Assembly (NCBI RefSeq): GCF_048268965.1
Contig: NZ_JBLWUK010000015.1
Span: 14,575 to 78,574 of the forward strand
DNA: 64,000 nucleotides
Direction of reading: 5' to 3'
Source of the DNA: Oceanisphaera sp.
GTDB taxonomy: Bacteria; Pseudomonadota; Gammaproteobacteria; Enterobacterales; Aeromonadaceae
Below, in pieces: positions 36,217 to 52,507 of the stretch (position 1 is its first letter; the number at the start of each line of letters is the position of its first letter). The notes under the pieces are model-generated. The model was not told where the DNA came from, searched no databases, and saw only the letters and a program-made list of their open reading frames with translations. A program made the position numbers and the translations under genes.

Positions 36217-38112
36217 ATGACATCGAGTCAATATACTGCTGATGCCATTGAGGTACTCAATGGCCTGGAGCCGGTGCGTCGTCGTCCCGGCATGTATACC
36301 GATACTACTCGCCCTAATCACCTCGGCCAGGAGGTCATCGACAACAGCGTTGATGAGGCACTCGCCGGCCACGCCAGCAAGATTGAAGTGATACTGCATG
36401 CCGACCAGTCACTGGAAGTGATCGACAACGGTCGCGGCATGCCGGTCGACATTCATCCGGAAGAAGGCATTTCGGGCGTTGAGCTGATTTTCTGCAAGCT
36501 GCATGCGGGGGGCAAGTTCTCCAATAAAAACTACCAGTACTCTGGCGGCCTGCATGGCGTCGGTATTTCGGTGGTCAGTGCCTTGAGTTCACGACTGGAC
36601 GTCACTATCCGTCGCGGCGGCCAGGTCTACGAGATGGCCTTCGAGCACGGCAACAAGGTGAACGAGCTGACTGTCACCGGCACCTGTGGCCAGCGTAATA
36701 CCGGTACCCGCGTCCATTTCTGGCCCGATGCCAGCTATTTCGATTCGGCCAAGTTTTCCGTTACCCGCCTCAAGCACCTGCTAAAAGCCAAGGCGGTACT
36801 GTGCCCGGGTCTCAGTATTCACTTCGTTGACAAGGTCAACGACGAAACCCAGGAGTGGTGCTATCAGGACGGCCTGCAGGATTACCTGCTGGAGTCGGTC
36901 AAGGATTATACCTGCCTGCCAGAGCAACCCTTTGTGGGCAACTTCAGCGCGGAACATTCGGCAGTGGAGTGGGCCCTGACCTGGCTGCCCGAGGGTGGCG
37001 AAGGACTGGGCGAGAGCTACGTCAACCTGATCCCGACCCCCCAGGGCGGCACCCACGTGAATGGTTTGCGCCAGGGGCTGCTGGATGCCATGCGGGAGTT
37101 TTGTGAATTCAGAAACCTGCTGCCCCGTGGCGTCAAGCTCACGCCGGACGATATCTGGGAGCGCTGTGCCTATATTCTGTCGGTAAAAATGCAAGACCCG
37201 CAGTTTGCCGGGCAAACCAAAGAGCGGCTGTCGTCGCGCCAATGTTCGGCCTTTGTCTCGGGTGTGGTTAAGGATGCATTCAGCCTGTGGCTCAACCAGC
37301 ATACCGATCTGGCCGAGCAAATTGCCGAGCTCTGTATCAGCAGTGCCCAGCGCCGCTTGCGTCAGGCAAAAAAGGTGGTGCGCAAAAAGGTCACCCAGGG
37401 GCCGGCCCTGCCGGGCAAACTCACCGATTGTGCCTGCTCGGATCCCATGCGTGGCGAGCTGTTTCTGGTTGAAGGTGATTCCGCCGGCGGCAGTGCCAAA
37501 CAGGCGCGGGATCGTGAGTTTCAGGCGATCATGCCGCTACGCGGCAAGATCCTGAACACCTGGGAAGTGGAGCCGGGCCAGGTACTGGCGTCGCAGGAAG
37601 TCCACGATATTTCGGTGGCCATCGGCCTGGATCCGGACTCGACCGACCTGAGCGATTTACGCTACGGCAAGATATGCATACTGGCGGATGCGGACTCGGA
37701 TGGTCTGCATATTGCCACCCTGCTGTGCGCCCTGTTTGTCCGCCACTTCCGCTTCCTGGTCGAACAAGGCCATGTCTATGTGGCCATGCCGCCCTTGTAT
37801 CGCATCGATTTGGGCAAAGAGGTGTATTACGCCCTGGATGAAGACGAGCGCGACGGCGTGCTGGAGCGGATTAAAGCCGAAAAGAAACGGGGCAAAGTAC
37901 AGGTGACTCGCTTTAAGGGACTGGGTGAAATGAACCCCAAGCAGTTGCGTGAAACCACCCTGGATCCCAACACCCGTCGACTGGTGCAGCTGACGGTGGA
38001 TGACATGGAGAGCACCACCAAACTGATGGATATGCTGCTGGCCAAAAAGCGCTCCGGCGATCGTCGTGAATGGCTGGAAGCCAAGGGTAACCTGGTCGAT
38101 CCCCTGGCCTGA
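36217..38112 (+). CDS. parE: DNA topoisomerase IV subunit B
   Basis: GLEPVRRRPGMY, EVIDNSVDE, GGLHGVG, EGDSAGGS, PLRGKILN, ADADSDG, RFKGLGEM. Confidence 0.98.
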   Translation: MTSSQYTADAIEVLNGLEPVRRRPGMYTDTTRPNHLGQEVIDNSVDEALAGHASKIEVILHADQSLEVIDNGRGMPVDIHPEEGISGVELIFCKLHAGGKFSNKNYQYSGGLHGVGISVVSALSSRLDVTIRRGGQVYEMAFEHGNKVNELTVTGTCGQRNTGTRVHFWPDASYFDSAKFSVTRLKHLLKAKAVLCPGLSIHFVDKVNDETQEWCYQDGLQDYLLESVKDYTCLPEQPFVGNFSAEHSAVEWALTWLPEGGEGLGESYVNLIPTPQGGTHVNGLRQGLLDAMREFCEFRNLLPRGVKLTPDDIWERCAYILSVKMQDPQFAGQTKERLSSRQCSAFVSGVVKDAFSLWLNQHTDLAEQIAELCISSAQRRLRQAKKVVRKKVTQGPALPGKLTDCACSDPMRGELFLVEGDSAGGSAKQARDREFQAIMPLRGKILNTWEVEPGQVLASQEVHDISVAIGLDPDSTDLSDLRYGKICILADADSDGLHIATLLCALFVRHFRFLVEQGHVYVAMPPLYRIDLGKEVYYALDEDERDGVLERIKAEKKRGKVQVTRFKGLGEMNPKQLRETTLDPNTRRLVQLTVDDMESTTKLMDMLLAKKRSGDRREWLEAKGNLVDPLA

Positions 38113-38125
38113 GGACAGAACTTAA

Positions 38126-40372
38126 ATGAGTAATAACGATTTTACGATGGAAGGCGTAGAACGCCTGCCGTTGCATACCTTTACCGAGCAGGCTTACCTT
38201 AATTACTCCATGTACGTCATCATGGATCGCGCCTTGCCCCATATAGGTGATGGCCTGAAACCGGTACAGCGCCGCATTATTTATGCCATGAGCGAGCTGG
38301 GGCTGTCGGCCCTGTCCAAGCATAAAAAGTCGGCCCGTACCGTGGGGGACGTGCTGGGTAAATATCACCCCCATGGTGACTCCGCCTGTTACGAAGCCAT
38401 GGTGTTGATGGCGCAGCCGTTTTCTTACCGTTATCCACTGGTGGACGGCCAGGGTAACTGGGGGGCGCCGGATGATCCCAAGTCGTTCGCCGCCATGCGT
38501 TATACCGAGGCCCGTCTGTCTCGCCATGCCGAGCTGCTGTTATCCGAGCTCGGTCAGGGCACGGTAGAGTGGATCCCCAACTTCGATGGCACCATGAAAG
38601 AGCCGCGCATGTTGCCGGCCCGCCTGCCGCATATTCTGCTCAATGGCGTCACCGGCATTGCCGTGGGCATGGCGACCGACATACCGCCCCATAACATTCG
38701 CGAACTGGCCGCCGCCTGCGTGCACTTATTGGCGAATCCCAAGGCGAGCGTGAGCGAGCTGATGGAGTTTGTGCACGGGCCGGATTACCCCACCCATGCC
38801 GAGATCATTACCCCCCGGGCGGATATTCAGAAAATATACGAAACCGGTCGTGGCAGCATCAAGATGCGCGCCGTCTACGAGATGGAACAAGGGGATATTA
38901 TCATTACCTCCTTGCCGCACCAGGCCAGCAGCGGCAAGATCCTGGAGCAGATAGCGGCCCAGATGCAGGCGAAAAAGCTGCCCATGGTAGCGGATTTGCG
39001 TGATGAGGCGGATCATGAAAACCCCACGCGGCTGGTGATTATTCCGCGCTCGAACCGGGTCGATGTCGAACAGCTGATGCAGCACCTGTTTGCCAGCACC
39101 GATCTGGAGAAGAGCTACCGCGTAAACCTGAACATGCTGGGACTGAACAACAAGCCCCAGGTGAAAAGTCTGGATATGATTCTGGACGAATGGCTGACCT
39201 TTCGCCGGCAAACCGTGCGTAACCGCCTGCAGCACCGGCTGGATAAAGTGGAAGCGCGGCTGCACATTCTGGAAGGCTTGTTGGCCGCGTTTTTGAACAT
39301 TGATGAAGTCATCGAGATCATTCGCCGCGAAGACGAACCCAAGCCGGTGTTAATGGCGCGTTTCGAGCTCACCGAGATACAGGCTGAAGCCATTCTGGAG
39401 CTGAAATTACGCCACTTGGCCAAGCTGGAAGAAGTGAAGATCCGCGGTGAGCAGGATGAGCTGGCTGCCGAGCGGGACAAGCTGACCTTACTGCTGAGCT
39501 CCGAGCGTCGCTTGAATACCCTGATCAAGAAAGAGATCCTGGCCGATGCCGAAAAGTACGGGGACGATCGTCGCTCGCCGCTTATTGAGCGAGCAGAAGC
39601 CAGGGCATTGAGCGAGAAAGAGCTGATCCCCAGTGAGGCGATCACGGTTGTGCTCTCGGAAAAAGGCTGGATCCGGTCGGCCAAGGGGCACGATATCGAT
39701 GGTGCCAGCCTGAGCTATCGGGCCGGGGACGGCTTTCTGGATGCGGTTAATGGACGCAGTAACCAGATGGCGGTGTTCCTGTCCAGCATAGGCCGGGCCT
39801 ATGGCCAGGATGCCCATGGCTTGCCCTCGGCCCGCAGCCAGGGCGAACCCCTGTCGGGGCGTTGTAACTTGAGCCCCGGCGAGCAGGCCAGTTTTGTGCT
39901 GATGGGCGACGACGAACGGCTGTTCCTGCTGGCGTCCGATGCGGGTTATGGCTTTGTGTGCCGCTTTGCTGACATGGTAAGCCGCAATAAAAACGGCAAG
40001 GCGTTGCTCACCGTGCCCGCCGGCGGTCAGGTGTTGAAGCCGGTGCTCATAGAGCAGCTGGCCAGCAGTCAGTGTTTGGCGGTGACCAATGAAGGCCGCA
40101 TGTTGTTGTTTCCACTGCAGGACTTGCCGCTGTTGGGCAAGGGCAAGGGCAACAAGATCATCGGCATTCCTTCGGCCAAGGTGCAGGCCCGGGAAGACTT
40201 CATCAAGCAGCTGGTGGTGGTGCCGGAAGGTGCCAGCGTGACCCTGTATGCCGGCAAGCGTAAACTCACCCTCAAGCCTGCCGATCTGGCTCACTACCAG
40301 GGTGAAAGGGGCCGCCGCGGTGCCTTGTTGCCCCGAGGGTTGCAACGGGTAGACAGTCTGGAAGTCGAATAA
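38126..40372 (+). CDS. parC: DNA topoisomerase IV subunit A
   Basis: [38 protein letters not shown]. Confidence 0.98.
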
Positions 40373-47572: not shown

Positions 47573-48685
47573 ATGGAGTTAACGCCTTTATTGCAGGCAA
47601 TGGTGGATCAGCAGGCCTCGGATCTCTATGTCTCGGTCGGGGTGCCGCCCATGGTGAAAAGCCATGGCAAACTGGTGCCCCTGGGCGAGACCCGGCTGAC
47701 GGCAGCAGATACGCTGGCCCTGGTGGAATCTTGCATGACCGCCGACTGGCACGCGCATTTTCACCGTCATAAAGAAGCCAACTTCGCCATTAGCGACGAG
47801 CAGTGCGGGCGTTTTCGGGTGAGTGCCTTCTGGCAACAGGAAAAGGCCGGCATGGTGATCCGCCGCATCGAAAGCAGGATCCCGACCTTCGAAGAGCTGT
47901 ATCTGCCCGACAGCCTGCGTGACATCGCCATGACCAAGCGCGGTCTGGTGTTGTTTGTAGGGGGGACGGGAACCGGTAAGTCGACCACCCAGGCGGCCAT
48001 GATTGGCCATCGCAACCGCCATGCGGACGATCATATTCTGACCATAGAAGATCCGGTGGAATTTGTGCATCAGCACGATCGCTCCATTATTACCCAGCGC
48101 GAAGTGGGTATAGATACCGAATCTTTTGAAGCCGCACTGAAAAGCTCTCTGCGTCAGGCGCCCAACGTGATCCTGATTGGGGAAATTCGCAGCGAAGAAA
48201 CCATGGGCTATGCCCTGGCGTTTGCCGAAACCGGGCACCTGTGCATGGCTACCCTGCACGCCAACAACGCCAACCAGGCGCTGGACCGTATTATGCACCT
48301 GGTGCCGGAAAGCAAGCATCGGCAGCTGCAGTTTGATTTGTCGTTCAACCTCAAGGCGATAGTGGCCCAGCAGCTGATTCCAACCCGAGATGGCGGCAAG
48401 CGGCGGGCCGCCTTTGAAGTGCTGTTGAACACGCCCCTCATGGCCGACTTGATCCGCAAAGGCGAAATGCATCGTTTGAAGGAGCTGATGGGCAAGTCCC
48501 GAGAGCAGGGCATGCAGACCTTCGATCAGGCCTTGTTTGATCTCTATACCCAACAGCACATCGGCTATAGCGAAGCCCTGGCCTATGCCGACTCTCCCAA
48601 CGATTTACGCTTGATGATCAAGCTGCAAGCAGGCAACCGGGGGCTGGATGCCGGCTTGCTCGATAACGCGACCATAGAAGATTGA
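47573..48685 (+). CDS. pilU: Type IV pilus ATPase PilU
   Basis: GGTGTGKST, LRQAPNVILIGEIR, HANNANQALDRI; follows pilT. Confidence 0.96.
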   Translation: MELTPLLQAMVDQQASDLYVSVGVPPMVKSHGKLVPLGETRLTAADTLALVESCMTADWHAHFHRHKEANFAISDEQCGRFRVSAFWQQEKAGMVIRRIESRIPTFEELYLPDSLRDIAMTKRGLVLFVGGTGTGKSTTQAAMIGHRNRHADDHILTIEDPVEFVHQHDRSIITQREVGIDTESFEAALKSSLRQAPNVILIGEIRSEETMGYALAFAETGHLCMATLHANNANQALDRIMHLVPESKHRQLQFDLSFNLKAIVAQQLIPTRDGGKRRAAFEVLLNTPLMADLIRKGEMHRLKELMGKSREQGMQTFDQALFDLYTQQHIGYSEALAYADSPNDLRLMIKLQAGNRGLDAGLLDNATIED

Positions 48686-48780
48686 GTGTGCTTTCAGCAG
48701 CGCCCAGCGCCTGGCACCAAGCGCCCAGAAAAAGATACACACAGTTCCTGTAGGCCGGCGCTTTAGCGGCCGGTTCTGCG

Positions 48781-49149
48781 TTATACCAATCTAAGTAAAA
48801 ATATGATCTATTTTAAAGCTGAGTACCAGAGGAAACAGAGTCAACTCCCACGACACGCCATAAACCCATCCTTGGGGGCTCGGGAAATGACATCCCTGTC
48901 ATTTCACGGTCGTGGGAGCCGAACTCTGTTGCCTCTCCACAAGCACCGAGTTGTCTGTAGATAGCACCTACAGGCAACTCCGCAGCTTGGGGCGGATGAA
49001 GGGATCTACTCCACCGACCATCACATGACAAGGAGGTCATGTGTTTGAGCGCCACAGGGAAGTGCTTGCAGCGTGTCGGTGGAGTAGACCCTTCGTTCGG
49101 CCTTTCCAGAGCAGCTAAATAGACCAGTTACTTACTCAGTTTGGTATTA
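48781..49149. mobile_element. 363-bp structured MITE-like element, copy 2
   Basis: Same orientation as, and ~97% identical to, 31360-31727; TTA flanks at 48781-48783 and 49147-49149. Confidence 0.8.
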
Positions 49150-49317
49150 GCAGAATATGTTTTATGTCAGACCCTAATAGCTGACCGCTTTATTTTATGC
49201 CTCGCCTGTGGATTTCGTAGGGGCCGTGGCAAAATGGCTGTAAAGGTTGGATGTTTGTTCGCCATGACGCTGTTGTTGTGATGGCGGGTTTTTATAATAG
49301 TTATTTAGAGGTAACTC

Positions 49318-50091
49318 ATGCTGATAGTGGTTTCTCCTGCCAAGACACTCGATTTTGATACGCCACCGGTTATTGCCGACTTCACTCAGCCTGAGTTATT
49401 AGCCGAATCGGCGCTGTTGATCGAGCGGGCTCGCCAGCTAAGCCCGGCCGACATTGGCAAGCTGATGAAGATCAGCGACAAGCTCGCCGGGCTGAATGCC
49501 GCCCGTTTTGCCGACTGGCAGCCTGATTTTACTCCGGACAACGCCAAGCAGGCGCTTCTGGCGTTTAAAGGCGATGTGTATACCGGGCTGGATGCCGAAA
49601 GCCTGAGTCCGGCGGACTTTGCCTTTGCTCAACAACATTTTCGTATGCTGTCGGGCTTGTACGGCCTGCTGCGGCCACTGGATCTGATGCAGCCTTACCG
49701 GCTGGAGATGGGCACCAAGCTGGATAACGAGCGCGGTAAAGACCTGTATGCCTTCTGGGGGGACATTATTACCGACAAGCTCAATCAGGCTCTGGAAGAG
49801 CAGGGCGATAATGTGCTGATCAACCTGGCATCCAACGAGTACTTCAAGGCGGTTAAACCCAAGCGCCTGGCCGGACAGATTATTACCCCGGTATTCAAGG
49901 ACTGTAAGAACGGCCAGTACAAAATCATCAGCTTTTACGCCAAGAAGGCACGAGGCATGATGGCGCGTTATATTATTCAGCATCAGCTGACCGAGGTGAG
50001 CCAGCTAACCGCCTTTGACACCGCGGGTTACTACTTCGTTGAAGCCGAGTCGACCGCGACCGAGCTGGTGTTCAAGCGCGAAGAGCAGTAA
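49318..50091 (+). CDS. yaaA: Peroxide stress / DNA-binding protein YaaA
   Basis: [55 protein letters not shown]. Confidence 0.96.
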
Positions 50092-50278
50092 TGCCCTCTG
50101 GGCAGCGGTACGTTTTAAGCCATACGCAGTAAGCCAAAGGCCAACACTGGATCCGCAGGTCTGGTTTTCTGCCTTAAAGTGGACAGAGCATAGAGGCGAC
50201 AAAAGGCGGAGCGGCTCTTTAACCGACAGCGTACAGCGTATGACCTACGGCGTTTTAACGTTTTTTCGCAAAAAGTGT

Positions 50279-50305
50279 GAACCTTTTGCCCTGGGGCTGC
50301 TCTTA
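50279..50305 (+). promoter_or_regulatory. SigmaE (RpoE/AlgU)-type promoter, copy 1
   Basis: GAACCT-N16-TCTTA with an upstream A-tract. Confidence 0.65.
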
Positions 50306-50311
50306 ACTAGT

Positions 50312-50377
50312 GTGCTTACTGAATTTGAATACTCTCTCTTCTTCCTTTTTAACCGGTCCCGATGGGCCGGTTTTTTT
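50312..50377 (+). ncRNA. Candidate small RNA, copy 1 (~66 nt)
   Basis: GTGCTTACTGAATTTGAATACTCTCTCTTCTTCCTTTTTA + ACCGGTCC-CGAT-GGGCCGGT-T7 terminator; no ORF. Confidence 0.65.
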
Positions 50378-50476
50378 ATGGGGCCGGTATCGGCGGCGGC
50401 ACGTCACTGCGTCTTCGGCCAAAACAGGGCCTTGAGCTAAAAAAGGGCCTTTAGCCAAAAAAAAAGTAAAAAGCCG

Positions 50477-50503
50477 GAACCTTTTGCTCCGGCTGTGCTC
50501 TTA
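50477..50503 (+). promoter_or_regulatory. SigmaE-type promoter, copy 2
   Basis: (G)GAACCT-N16-TCTTA; the spacer has diverged from copy 1 while the boxes are unchanged. Confidence 0.65.
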
Positions 50504-50509
50504 ATGAGT

Positions 50510-50574
50510 ATGCTTACTGAATTTGAATACTCTCTCTTCTTCATTTTGACCGGTCCCGATGGGCCGGTTTTTTT
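50510..50574 (+). ncRNA. Candidate small RNA, copy 2 (~65 nt)
   Basis: ATGCTTACTGAATTTGAATACTCTCTCTTCTTCATTTTG + the same terminator hairpin and T7. Confidence 0.65.
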
Positions 50575-50690
50575 ATGGGGTACCGGTACTTTTTTATGAG
50601 GTACCGCTACCGGCGGTGGCGCATAACGGCGCTTTCAGCCTAAAAAAGTGCCATCAGATCAAAAAATAGCCATTGGCCAAAAAAAAACCG

Positions 50691-50717
50691 GAACCTTTCG
50701 GTCCGGCCGTGCTCTTA
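50691..50717 (+). promoter_or_regulatory. SigmaE-type promoter, copy 3
   Basis: (G)GAACCT-N16-TCTTA preceded by an A9 tract. Confidence 0.65.
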
Positions 50718-50723
50718 CCTAGT

Positions 50724-50786
50724 GTGCTTACTGAATTTTACTACTCTCTTCTTCTTTTTGACCGGTCCTGATGGGCCGGTTTTTTT
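50724..50786 (+). ncRNA. Candidate small RNA, copy 3 (~63 nt)
   Basis: GTGCTTACTGAATTTTACTACTCTCTTCTTCTTTTTG + ACCGGTCC-TGAT-GGGCCGGT-T7; the hairpin differs from copies 1-2 only in the loop. Confidence 0.65.
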
Positions 50787-50819
50787 ATCGGCACTTTTTT
50801 AGCGGTACTGTGGGGCGGA

Positions 50820-50981
50820 TTATTGCCCCCACAGGCTTTTGGCCTGATCCACTTTGCGCCGTCCCGGGCTTTGCATGCGGCGTTCCTGATCTTCCGGGGG
50901 CCAGCGCAGCAGATCGCGTCGGTCCAGAATGCGTCGTCTTTGCTGTTGGCGCCGCTCGGGGCCCGAATAATGTTTTAGCAT
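50820..50981 (-). CDS. Unannotated 53-aa arginine-rich protein with YSGPERR and repeated DRR/ERR motifs
   Basis: Below the ORF-track cutoff. Manual translation: MLKHYSGPERRQQQRRRILDRRDLLRWPPEDQERRMQSPGRRKVDQAKSLWGQ*. AAGGCGG lies upstream of the ATG. Confidence 0.7.
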   Translation of the reverse strand: MLKHYSGPERRQQQRRRILDRRDLLRWPPEDQERRMQSPGRRKVDQAKSLWGQ

Positions 50982-51080
50982 ACTGCCGCCTTGACGGGTG
51001 TTAACGAGGCTTTATACCGTTAAGCATAGCCGAGCCAGGCTGGCTTGTGCCGGCAGGCATCTGCAAAATACCGTGAGCAT

Positions 51081-51120
51081 AAAAAGAAAAGGGGGAAGAG
51101 TTATTGCTAACTCTTCCCCC
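51081..51120 (-). terminator. Intrinsic terminator of srmB
   Basis: GGGGGAAGAGTTA-TTGC-TAACTCTTCCCCC stem, followed on the minus strand by TTTTCTTTTT. Confidence 0.85.
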
Positions 51121-51157
51121 TGACGATTCACTGCTCCCCCCTCACAGGGGATGGGTA

Positions 51158-52507
51158 TTATTCGTTATTATCACTGGCTGCGGGTTTGCGACCGGGCTTT
51201 TTCGCCTGGCTGGCCTCGGCTTTACCCGTTGCCCACTTCGGCTTGCCCTTGCTCTTGGTGTCTCTTAAACGCACTTTCTCTTTCTTGACCGGCGCCAGCT
51301 TTTTCTTGCTCTTGCGTTCGCCGTCTTTTTTCTTGCGTGTCGTTACCCGGGCTTCTTTATGCTGCGGCCTTAGCCCCTCGATAAAGCGACGCTTCAGCGG
51401 CTCTTCGGTGTATTTTTCCACTTTCACCAGCAATGGCATGTCGTGGGCTTCAACCAGGCTGATGGCGGTGCCTTTTTGTCCGGCACGACCGGTACGGCCG
51501 ATACGATGCACATACACATCGGCGGTACGCGGCATATCATAGTTAATGACGTGGCTGACCTGTGGCAAGTCGATACCGCGAGAGGCCACATCGGTCGCCA
51601 CCAGAATATTGACTCGGCCAATACGGAAACGCCCCAGGGCTTCGTTACGCTTTTCCTGCTCCATTTCACCGCGCAGCCAGGCATTGTGCAGGCCTTCTTG
51701 CTGTAGCCGGCTGGCCAGCTCCATCAGGCGCTCGCGGGTTTTCACGAAGATGATGCTGCGAGTGACCTCGGGCTGGCGCAACAAGCTGACCAGCAGCGCA
51801 AATTTATGCTCCGGGTTATCAGCCATGTGAACCCACTGATTGATTTTCTTGCGCTCGCTGCGTGGCGGCTCGGCGCTGACCTCGACCGGGTCTTTCAGCA
51901 AATCGGCGGCAAACTTCATCAAGCCGTGGCCTTCAAGGGTGGCCGAAAACAGCATGGTCTGGCGGCGCCAGCGGGCCTCGGCGGCAATGCGGTCTACTTC
52001 TTTGATAAAGCCCATGTCCAGCATGCGGTCGGCTTCATCCAGCACCAGCATTTCGATGTCGCGACAGTCAAACGACTCTTCCTCAATGTATTGCAGCAGT
52101 CGTCCCGGGGTTGCCACCACTATGTCCGTGGTTTTGGTCAGGGCCGGCAGGTGCTGACTTTCGTGCACACCGCCGGTGATCACCTCAACGCGCAGCTTGG
52201 TGCCTTTGGCGATGGCAATGGCATCGTTGCCTATTTGCATCGCCAGTTCGCGGGTGGGCGTTAAAATCAGAATACGGGCAGGGCCCGCCTGGCGGCGTGG
52301 AAAGTCCAGCAGGTGTTGGCAAATAGGCACTAAAAAAGCCGCCGTTTTGCCGGTGCCGGTAGGGGCAGAGGCCATTATGTCCCTTCCGCTCATGGCTTCG
52401 GGGATAACTTGGCTCTGAATGGTGGTCGGTTTTGCATAGCCCATGTCGGTCAATGCGCGGACCAGGATGGGATCCAGTTCCAGTTGCTCGAAGGTCATAC
52501 TGCTCAT
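51158..52507 (-). CDS. srmB: DEAD-box RNA helicase SrmB
   Basis: APTGTGKT, ILILTPTRELA, DEADRMLDMGF, RWRRQTMLFSATL, HRIGRTGRAG, Lys-rich tail; divergent from yfiC. Confidence 0.95.
   Translation of the reverse strand: MSSMTFEQLELDPILVRALTDMGYAKPTTIQSQVIPEAMSGRDIMASAPTGTGKTAAFLVPICQHLLDFPRRQAGPARILILTPTRELAMQIGNDAIAIAKGTKLRVEVITGGVHESQHLPALTKTTDIVVATPGRLLQYIEEESFDCRDIEMLVLDEADRMLDMGFIKEVDRIAAEARWRRQTMLFSATLEGHGLMKFAADLLKDPVEVSAEPPRSERKKINQWVHMADNPEHKFALLVSLLRQPEVTRSIIFVKTRERLMELASRLQQEGLHNAWLRGEMEQEKRNEALGRFRIGRVNILVATDVASRGIDLPQVSHVINYDMPRTADVYVHRIGRTGRAGQKGTAISLVEAHDMPLLVKVEKYTEEPLKRRFIEGLRPQHKEARVTTRKKKDGERKSKKKLAPVKKEKVRLRDTKSKGKPKWATGKAEASQAKKPGRKPAASDNNE

What the first reader, a model, noticed from the sequence alone, without database searches (positions are those of the whole stretch)
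50820..50981. Unannotated 53-aa peptide resembling a stand-alone c-di-GMP-binding module
Seen: an ORF missed by the track, MLKHYSGPERRQQQRRRILDRRDLLRWPPEDQERRMQSPGRRKVDQAKSLWGQ, with ERR/DRR/ERR/GRR motifs at ~10-aa intervals and a plausible RBS. Known: the [YF]xGPx[RK]R arginine-rich motif binds c-di-GMP in Caulobacter Cle proteins, and RxxxR motifs do so in PilZ domains. Here the motif has no attached domain. Inference: a natural c-di-GMP sponge or small adaptor. It converges on the triplicated sRNA cassette (stop 34 bp from terminator 3), so the yaaA-srmB gap may be a compact envelope-stress/lifestyle regulatory island.
Basis: partly seen in the sequence, partly recalled or inferred. Interest (0 to 1): 0.8.

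Follow-up and report, generated by a model that had tools for sequence, protein, structure and literature searches.

The report
Conserved arginine-rich 53-residue orphan protein
The 53-codon reading frame is a real, conserved gene for a tiny, very basic, probably unfolded protein that belongs to a large uncharacterised family; it carries one copy of a peptide motif known to bind the bacterial signal c-di-GMP, so that function is plausible but untested.

Summary
The ORF (window 50820-50981, minus strand, 53 aa) is there exactly as described. It is a genuine gene. It is intact, with a Shine-Dalgarno sequence and ATG, in 11 other Oceanisphaera and Zobellella genomes. It evolves under purifying selection (dN/dS 0.06-0.44, in-frame indels only). 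It belongs to a family of at least 687 protein clusters, nearly all 50-100 aa stand-alone proteins, with no Pfam, NCBIfam or PDB match.

The family signature is Y-x-G-P-E-R-R-x3-RR-x3-DRR-x3-R-[FW]-E-P-x-K-x2-RR-x3/4-[GD]RR. Its first seven residues match the Cle/CSP c-di-GMP-binding heptad [YF]xGP[DE][RK]R exactly. The defining Cle features are absent: no tandem second heptad, no DRR-x11-[RK]RxxD spacing, no CheY domain. Gene neighbourhoods show no link to c-di-GMP enzymes. AlphaFold2 predicts mostly coil at low confidence.

A conserved -10 element of the RpoS type (CTATGCTT/CTACACTT) lies upstream in all 12 orthologues. The neighbouring sRNA-like cassettes occur without the ORF in relatives, so the "regulatory island" idea is not supported.

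My best guess, at about 0.4, is a stationary-phase small protein that folds around c-di-GMP. RNA or ribosome binding is the main rival.

The parts
50820..50981 (-). CDS of the 53-aa arginine-rich protein (stop codon TAA at 50820-50822). pI about 11.5; 12 Arg; no Cys; no hydrophobic segment.
   Evidence: ORF list. Conserved with in-frame indels in 11 other genomes. dN/dS 0.06-0.44. Family HMM hit at 5.7e-23, the only one in the window.
50949..50969 (-). Codons for Y5-S-G-P-E-R-R11, the single Cle-type heptad [YF]xGP[DE][RK]R. With R15 it also forms an RRxxxR string.
   Evidence: Only occurrence of the heptad in the six-frame translation of the window. Column frequencies over 193 family members.
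50986..50992 (-). Shine-Dalgarno-like AAGGCGG, 7 nt (AAGG) upstream of the ATG.
   Evidence: Sequence. An SD-like element at the same distance is present in all 12 orthologues.
51022..51029 (-). Conserved CTATGCTT, the presumed -10 element with C at -13 (RpoS-type; consensus CTACACTT). It predicts a 5' UTR of about 34 nt.
   Evidence: CTATGCTT or CTACACTT is present 24-45 nt upstream of the ATG in 12 of 12 orthologues, although the flanks have diverged. The sigma-38 consensus is quoted in PMC2759082. Function as a promoter is inferred.
51080..51121 (-). Intrinsic terminator of srmB (14-bp stem plus T-run). It separates srmB from the small gene, so the small gene needs its own promoter.
   Evidence: Terminator scan. 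srmB identified by NCBIfam NF008394, 682 bits.
50760..50788 (+). Terminator of sRNA-like cassette 3, convergent with the small gene. On the minus strand the hairpin is followed by an A-rich tail, not a U-rich one.
   Evidence: Terminator scan and sequence.
50676..50704 (-). Hairpin plus U9 on the minus strand. It is the first canonical terminator downstream of the small gene, so its mRNA may run antisense across cassette 3 before ending here (inferred).
   Evidence: Terminator scan. The same arrangement is present in Zobellella L015/L016.

Best explanation
Shown. Window 50820-50981 (-) is a monocistronic gene in an Oceanisphaera genome. It lies between the srmB terminator and the convergent sRNA-like cassettes. 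It encodes a 53-aa, highly basic protein. The protein belongs to a widespread, uncurated family of stand-alone 50-100-aa proteins with five invariant Arg-Arg pairs, most preceded by Asp/Glu, and three conserved aromatic positions (Y5, W/F27, W51).

Inferred.
1. The gene is transcribed from its own promoter, which has an RpoS-type -10 element, so it is made mainly in stationary phase or under stress.
2. The free protein is disordered.
3. It folds on binding an intercalated c-di-GMP dimer, or two dimers. The N-terminal Y-x-G-P-E-R-R would work as in the Cle/CSP peptide: the acidic residue contacts the guanine Watson-Crick edge, the two Arg contact Hoogsteen edges, and the aromatic residue stacks. 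The further [DE]RR triads, W/F27 and the C-terminal RRxxD would supply the second half-site with a longer spacer.
4. Having no output domain, it would act as a c-di-GMP buffer or as a ligand-dependent adaptor for a partner protein.
For: Gene reality:
- ORF present as described.
- 12 intact orthologues, each with SD + ATG.
- dN/dS 0.06-0.44 with synonymous variation at invariant Arg codons.
- 687 clusters at E<=1e-3 and 109 at E<=1e-10, nearly all 50-100 aa.

Own transcription unit:
- The srmB terminator lies upstream.
- A CTATGCTT/CTACACTT element is conserved in 12/12 orthologues and matches the sigma-38 -10 consensus CTACACTT (PMC2759082).
- CTAYRMT is also found in 5 of 9 low-GC metagenome members, against 0.36 expected from shuffles.

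c-di-GMP reading:
- The heptad [YF]xGP[DE][RK]R matches exactly and is unique in the window.
- The conservation order Y, G, RR >> P parallels the CSP4 alanine scan, where Y163A, G165A, R168A and R169A are severe and P166A is mild (PMC7382256).
- RRxxxR is present in 99% of members and a C-terminal [RK]Rxx[DE] in 71%.
- The family HMM scores CSP1 at 11.4 bits, reached by about 0.1% of shuffles.
- The AlphaFold2 model is mostly coil (pLDDT 64.6, pTM 0.18). Apo CSP1 is likewise unfolded.
Against: - No binding data exist.
- The CSP site needs DRR-x11-[R/K]RxxD and a second Y-x-G-P heptad. 0 of 193 family members have a second heptad and 2% have that spacing.
- Similarity to CSP1 does not extend beyond 9 residues, and the profile search of PDB found nothing at E<=10.
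- There is no conserved neighbour. Only one GGDEF gene was seen in 386 kb of family contexts.
- No fusion to any signalling domain was seen among the best 150 hits.
- Arg-rich disordered peptides more often bind RNA.
- The RpoS-type -10 element is absent from the high-GC members and was not tested experimentally.
- No RNA-seq is available for this strain.
Confidence: 0.4

Rival explanations
1. RNA- or ribosome-binding small protein. The Arg-rich disordered peptide would bind structured RNA (rRNA, mRNA or sRNA hairpins), as arginine-rich-motif peptides or small stationary-phase ribosome-associated proteins do. It would modulate translation or RNA stability in stationary phase.
For: - Composition: 23% Arg, pI 11.5, and aromatic residues interspersed among RR pairs.
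- Predicted disorder.
- RpoS-type -10 element.
- The gene sits next to the RNA helicase gene srmB and next to sRNA-like hairpin cassettes in Oceanisphaera/Zobellella.
- No link to c-di-GMP genes in any context.
- From general knowledge: lambda N, Rev/Tat-type ARMs and E. coli Sra are of similar size and charge.
Against: - The strict conservation of Y-x-G-P-E before the first RR, and of an acidic residue before most RR pairs, is not a feature of known RNA-binding arginine-rich motifs.
- There is no match to RMF, Sra, DUF1127 or any other Pfam/NCBIfam model.
- Adjacency to srmB and the cassettes is not conserved outside this clade.
- The cassettes exist without the ORF.
Confidence: 0.3
2. Binder of another polyanion or nucleotide ((p)ppGpp, polyphosphate, DNA, another cyclic dinucleotide), or a ligand-independent protein adaptor. 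The shared heptad would then be convergent or coincidental.
For: - Five invariant RR pairs could coordinate phosphates generally.
- In the high-GC soil clade the gene lies next to the carbon-starvation gene cstA in 14 loci. This fits a starvation role without pointing to c-di-GMP.
Against: - The [DE]RR triads and aromatic residues are what a guanine-base reader needs, not a pure phosphate binder (structural logic from PMC7382256).
- The cstA synteny is limited to one clade.
Confidence: 0.2
3. Not a functional protein. The frame would be kept open by chance or by constraint on an overlapping RNA element, for example an antisense transcript or the 3' region of the sRNA locus.
For: - The ORF is short and Arg-rich in a GC-rich spacer.
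- No expression data exist for this strain.
Against: - dN/dS is well below 1 with saturated dS, and synonymous codon changes occur at invariant Arg positions.
- Only in-frame indels are seen.
- SD + ATG is conserved.
- Homologues at 40-60% identity occur in unrelated genomic contexts and GC contents.
- No Rfam match.
Confidence: 0.03

Closest known systems
[quoted passage not shown]
   Same: - Short, Arg-rich and unfolded on its own.
- Contains the heptad [YF]xGP[DE][RK]R (here YSGPERR).
- Has [DE]RR triads, aromatic residues and a C-terminal RRxxD (here RRKVD).
- The pattern of which heptad positions matter (Y, G, RR more than P) matches.
   Different: - One heptad, not two in tandem.
- ERR-x29-RRxxD instead of DRR-x11-[RK]RxxD.
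- Three extra invariant RR/R elements.
- Stand-alone, not a C-terminal tail of a receiver domain.
- Found in Gammaproteobacteria and high-GC soil bacteria, whereas 294 of the 302 reported ARR proteins are alphaproteobacterial.
- Profile similarity is limited to 9 residues.
PilZ domain c-di-GMP switch (RxxxR ... [D/N]xSxxG)
   Same: RRxxxR string (R10 R11 QQQ R15), present in 99% of family members. In PilZ proteins this segment is also a flexible Arg-rich N-terminal strand that wraps around c-di-GMP (general knowledge).
   Different: No [D/N]xSxxG (3% of members), no beta-barrel, no PF07238 match, and half the size of a PilZ domain.
Small basic stationary-phase or RNA-binding proteins (E. coli Sra/RpsV, RMF, DUF1127 proteins; phage and viral arginine-rich-motif peptides)
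   Same: Size (45-60 aa), high pI, likely disorder, and a likely stationary-phase promoter.
   Different: No sequence or profile similarity. The family-specific YxGPE and the acidic residue before each RR are not features of those proteins.

Membership tests
Cle-type ARR / CSP c-di-GMP-binding peptide | Heptad [Y/F]xGP[D/E][R/K]R | tested here: met
   YSGPERR at residues 5-11. It is unique in the window's six-frame translation. The strict motif is in 55% and a relaxed form in 90% of 193 family members.
Cle-type ARR / CSP c-di-GMP-binding peptide | Two heptads in tandem, about 13 residues apart | tested here: not met
   0 of 193 family members have a second heptad, even with a relaxed pattern. 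[FW]-E-P-x-K-x-D-R-R at residues 27-35 may be a degenerate second copy, but this is only an inference.
Cle-type ARR / CSP c-di-GMP-binding peptide | Ligand-contact motif DRR-x11-[R/K]RxxD (PMC7382256) | tested here: not met
   In the window protein the spacing is E9-R-R ... R41-R42-K-V-D45, a spacer of 29. The exact motif is in 2% of the family, and a 9-13 spacer in 8%.
Cle-type ARR / CSP c-di-GMP-binding peptide | C-terminal extension of a CheY-like receiver domain | tested here: not met
   The protein is 53 aa with no Pfam or NCBIfam domain. The best 150 family hits are nearly all 50-100 aa stand-alone proteins.
Cle-type ARR / CSP c-di-GMP-binding peptide | Detectable sequence homology to the CleD ARR | tested here: inconclusive
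   The family HMM scores CSP1 at 11.4 bits over 9 residues only. About 0.1% of 2000 shuffles reach that score. The PDB profile search at E<=10 returned nothing, although the CSP1 chain is deposited.
Cle-type ARR / CSP c-di-GMP-binding peptide | Binds an intercalated c-di-GMP dimer with nM-uM affinity and folds on binding | not testable with these tools
   Only the apo state could be modelled. AlphaFold2 gives pLDDT 64.6, mostly coil. This is compatible with the feature but not diagnostic.
PilZ domain | RxxxR motif | tested here: met
   RRQQQR at residues 10-15. RRxxxR is in 99% of members.
PilZ domain | [D/N]xSxxG motif and PilZ beta-barrel (PF07238) | tested here: not met
   The motif is in 3% of members. 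There is no PF07238 hit at E<=10.
RpoS (sigma-38)-dependent promoter | -10 element CTAYRCTT with C at -13 and a weak -35 | tested here: met
   CTATGCTT at 51029-51022. CTATGCTT or CTACACTT is present in 12/12 orthologues. The consensus CTACACTT is quoted in PMC2759082. Sigma-70 can use such sites too.
RpoS (sigma-38)-dependent promoter | Transcription start downstream of the element and dependence on rpoS | not testable with these tools
   No RNA-seq run holds this strain.
Known RNA families (Rfam 15), as an alternative to a CDS | Covariance-model match in 48500-52000 | tested here: not met
   0 matches at E<=1.

The most novel reading that the evidence does not exclude
The family is a widespread class of natural, genetically encoded c-di-GMP-sequestering peptides. 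These would be stand-alone disordered mini-proteins that fold around c-di-GMP using an expanded version of the Cle motif. They would be produced in stationary phase to buffer or redistribute the second messenger, or to hand it to a partner. That would be a natural counterpart of the engineered CSP peptides and a domain-less class of c-di-GMP effector in Gammaproteobacteria and soil bacteria.
Probability: 0.35. Interest if true: 0.85.

Novelty: new variant of a known kind. Interest (0 to 1): 0.6.

Why it matters
All established c-di-GMP receptors are domains or tails of larger proteins. The only stand-alone c-di-GMP-binding peptides are engineered ones (CSP1-4), which suppress Pseudomonas biofilm when over-expressed.

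This is a natural family of at least 687 clusters, each about 55 aa, carrying the same core heptad. If it binds c-di-GMP, it would add a buffering or adaptor layer to second-messenger signalling. It would also give a ready set of natural high-affinity peptide scaffolds.

If it does not bind c-di-GMP, it is still a large, strongly conserved small-protein family missing from Pfam and NCBIfam. It is often missed by gene callers and has a clear, cheap biochemical test.

Tried and rejected
1. Pfam and NCBIfam scans of the protein and of 40 family members gave only noise.
2. An Rfam scan of 48500-52000 at E<=1 found nothing, so neither the ORF region nor the cassettes are a described RNA.
3. A PDB profile search found nothing at E<=10.
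4. I tried to collect Cle ARR homologues for a profile-profile comparison. The comparison is therefore limited to an HMM against CSP1.
5. Gene-neighbourhood analysis for a functional partner covered 8 assemblies and 80 metagenome loci. It found no conserved partner and one GGDEF gene in 386 kb. The cstA and S9 peptidase synteny occurs only within one high-GC clade.
6. Expression data: no RNA run exists for this strain. One sediment metatranscriptome holds a low-depth contig over a family member, which is weak evidence.
7. The AlphaFold2 model has low confidence, so no fold search was run.
8. The sigma-70 promoter hit at 51004-50977 was rejected because its -10 hexamer overlaps the start codon.
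9. A sigma-54 reading of TGGCTCGGCTATGCTT was rejected because the GG-to-GC spacing is one base short (read from the sequence).
10. Literature searches for family-specific peptide strings found no relevant paper.
11. The alignment A2 was too divergent for the metagenome scan, so a sub-family alignment, A3, was used instead.

Full report
**1.

The ORF list gives 50820..50981 on the minus strand, with an ATG start, 53 aa and exactly the quoted translation. An AAGG(CGG) Shine-Dalgarno-like element sits 7 nt before the ATG.

The protein has ERR (9-11), RRR (15-17), DRR (20-22), ERR (33-35) and GRR (40-42).

The stop codon lies about 32-34 nt from the T-run of the third cassette terminator (stem 50760-50781).

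The flanking genes are yaaA (NF002541, 467 bits) and srmB (NF008394, 682 bits). YaaA-based retrieval of related loci identifies the organism as an Oceanisphaera species of the Aeromonadaceae.

**2. It is a real protein-coding gene**

- tblastn and frame extension find the ORF intact in nine other Oceanisphaera and two Zobellella genomes. It always lies between yaaA and srmB, and always has an SD-like element and an ATG.
- Length differences are whole codons.
- Nei-Gojobori estimates give dN/dS of 0.06-0.44 with pS of 0.4-0.85.
- The invariant arginines are written with CGG, CGA, CGC, CGT, AGA and AGG in different species. This is the signature of selection on the amino acid, not on an RNA.
- Rfam has no match anywhere in 48500-52000.

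**3. It belongs to a large, uncurated family**

- A profile of the orthologues retrieved 52 small "hypothetical" proteins. They include Ca. Thiodiazotropha, Acidiferrobacter and Dongshaea.
- An exhaustive HMM search of 1.84 billion representatives found 687 clusters at E<=1e-3 and 109 at E<=1e-10. Nearly all are 50-100 aa.
- One member (P0053) has two full copies of the module. One hit (P0055) is a spurious repeat protein.
- Over 193 members the signature is as follows: Y(0.87)-x-G(0.97)-P(0.67)-E(0.90)-R(0.85)-R(0.99)-x3-RR(0.99)-x3-D(0.86)-RR-x2-[IVL]-R(1.0)-[FWY](0.98)-E(0.85)-P(0.64)-x-K(0.76)-x2-RR(1.0)-x3/4-[GD](0.93)-RR(0.99)-x2-D(0.52)...W(0.68).
- No member matches any Pfam or NCBIfam model.
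- The profile finds nothing in the PDB.
- Searches of the literature for family-specific strings find nothing relevant.
- AlphaFold2 with the family alignment gives pLDDT 64.6 and pTM 0.18, mostly coil.

**4. Transcription unit**

srmB ends in a strong intrinsic terminator (51121-51090 plus T-run), so the small gene needs its own promoter.

In all 12 orthologues the otherwise diverged upstream region contains CTATGCTT(A) or CTACACTT(AA) 24-45 nt before the ATG. In the window it is at 51029-51022. This equals the sigma-38 -10 consensus CTACACTT with its C at -13 (quoted in PMC2759082).

Low-GC metagenomic members often have CTATAAT with the same C: 5 of 9, against 0.36 expected from shuffles. 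High-GC members do not have it: 0 of 45.

I infer stationary-phase or stress expression in this clade. This is not shown, because no RNA-seq run contains this strain.

Downstream, the cassette-3 terminator hairpin is followed on the minus strand by an A-rich tail. The first canonical minus-strand terminator is at 50704-50685 plus U9. The mRNA may therefore run antisense over cassette 3. This is an inference.

**5. Comparison with Cle/CSP**

- Cle proteins bind c-di-GMP through a C-terminal Arg-rich region with a tandem [Y/F]xGP[D/E][R/K]R.
- That region is sufficient when grafted onto another protein.
- 91% of the 302 proteins found with it are CheY-ARR proteins, almost all alphaproteobacterial (PMC5677366).

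The NMR and mutagenesis study (PMC7382256) defines the contacts:
- D154-R155-R156 of the first heptad contact the ligand, together with Y163 and [R/K]168-R169-x-x-D172. The motif is DRR-x11-[R/K]RxxD.
- The apo peptide is unfolded.
- Truncated peptides lacking D154 or the KAD tail lose binding.
- In the alanine scan Y163A, G165A, R168A and R169A are severe and P166A is mild.

Here YSGPERR matches the heptad exactly and is its only occurrence in the window's six frames. The family's conservation order (Y, G, RR well above P) mirrors the alanine scan. A C-terminal [RK]Rxx[DE] (RRKVD here) is present in 71% of members, and RRxxxR in 99%.

Against membership:
- No member has a second heptad, and the x11 spacing is present in 2%.
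- The family HMM aligns to CSP1 over only 9 residues, at 11.4 bits, reached by about 0.1% of shuffles.
- The protein is not attached to a receiver domain.

It therefore fails the membership test for the Cle ARR. It shares the chemistry that such a binder needs.

**6. Context gives no functional partner**

- Eight assemblies from other lineages show the gene alone, in unrelated neighbourhoods.
- 80 metagenome loci of a sub-family, totalling 386 kb together with those assemblies, contain one GGDEF gene and no recurrent partner. The only recurrent neighbours are cstA and an S9 peptidase within one high-GC clade.
- The sRNA-like cassette directly after yaaA is present in every Oceanisphaera, Oceanimonas and Zobellella locus, in 1-3 copies. 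The small ORF is missing in Oceanimonas smirnovii and three Zobellella species.

The two elements are therefore inherited independently, and the "regulatory island" reading is not supported.

**7. Verdict**

| Reading | Confidence |
|---|---|
| Stationary-phase, disordered mini-protein that folds around c-di-GMP with an expanded Cle-like site and acts as a buffer or adaptor | about 0.4 |
| RNA or ribosome binding | about 0.3 |
| Another polyanion, nucleotide or protein partner | about 0.2 |
| Non-coding | about 0.03 |

The family is new in the sense of being uncurated and unstudied. If it binds c-di-GMP it is a new, stand-alone variant of a known binding principle. One ITC or DRaCALA experiment with a synthetic peptide would decide.

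Noticed in passing
window 50270-50790 (+); also L001-L018 just after yaaA: There are three tandem sRNA-like cassettes. Each has an A-run, a 5' hairpin (CCGGAACC..GGTCCGG), a conserved GTGCTTACTGAATTT box, a C/U-rich CUCUCUUCUUC stretch and a terminator with T7. There is no Rfam match at E<=1. One to three copies are conserved right after yaaA in Oceanisphaera, Oceanimonas and Zobellella, so this looks like an undescribed sRNA family with variable copy number.
   Followed up: partly
window 50704-50685 and 50494-50472 (-): The 5' hairpin of cassettes 3 and 2 is followed by a U-run on the minus strand. Each cassette is therefore bracketed by terminators facing both ways. Which strand gives the stable RNA is not settled, and the small gene's mRNA may be antisense to cassette 3.
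   Followed up: no
P0053 (metagenome protein, 136 aa): One family member contains two complete copies of the Arg-rich module joined by a 40-residue linker. This is a natural tandem version.
   Followed up: no
L097, L099, L100, L103-L105, L108-L110, L112, L119 and others: In a high-GC soil clade the family gene lies next to the carbon-starvation gene cstA (14 loci) and an S9 prolyl-oligopeptidase gene (11 loci). This is probably synteny by descent, but it fits a starvation theme.
   Followed up: partly
L087 5171-5320 and L088 3735-3884: A 49-aa ORF with no Pfam hit starts 6 nt after the family gene's stop in two contigs. It may be a co-translated partner.
   Followed up: no
L094 4037-4177 (run X5): A sediment metatranscriptome holds a 151-nt contig that is 90-95% alike over a family member's ORF. 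This is a weak sign that a relative is transcribed.
   Followed up: partly
window 48686-49317: A 630-bp stretch between the pilT/pilU-family ATPase gene and yaaA has only short ORFs and no Rfam match. It was not examined further.
   Followed up: no
window 37916-38539 (-): A 208-aa open frame matches a crude HD...GYP regular expression. It was not verified with a profile, so it says nothing yet about c-di-GMP turnover in this organism.
   Followed up: no
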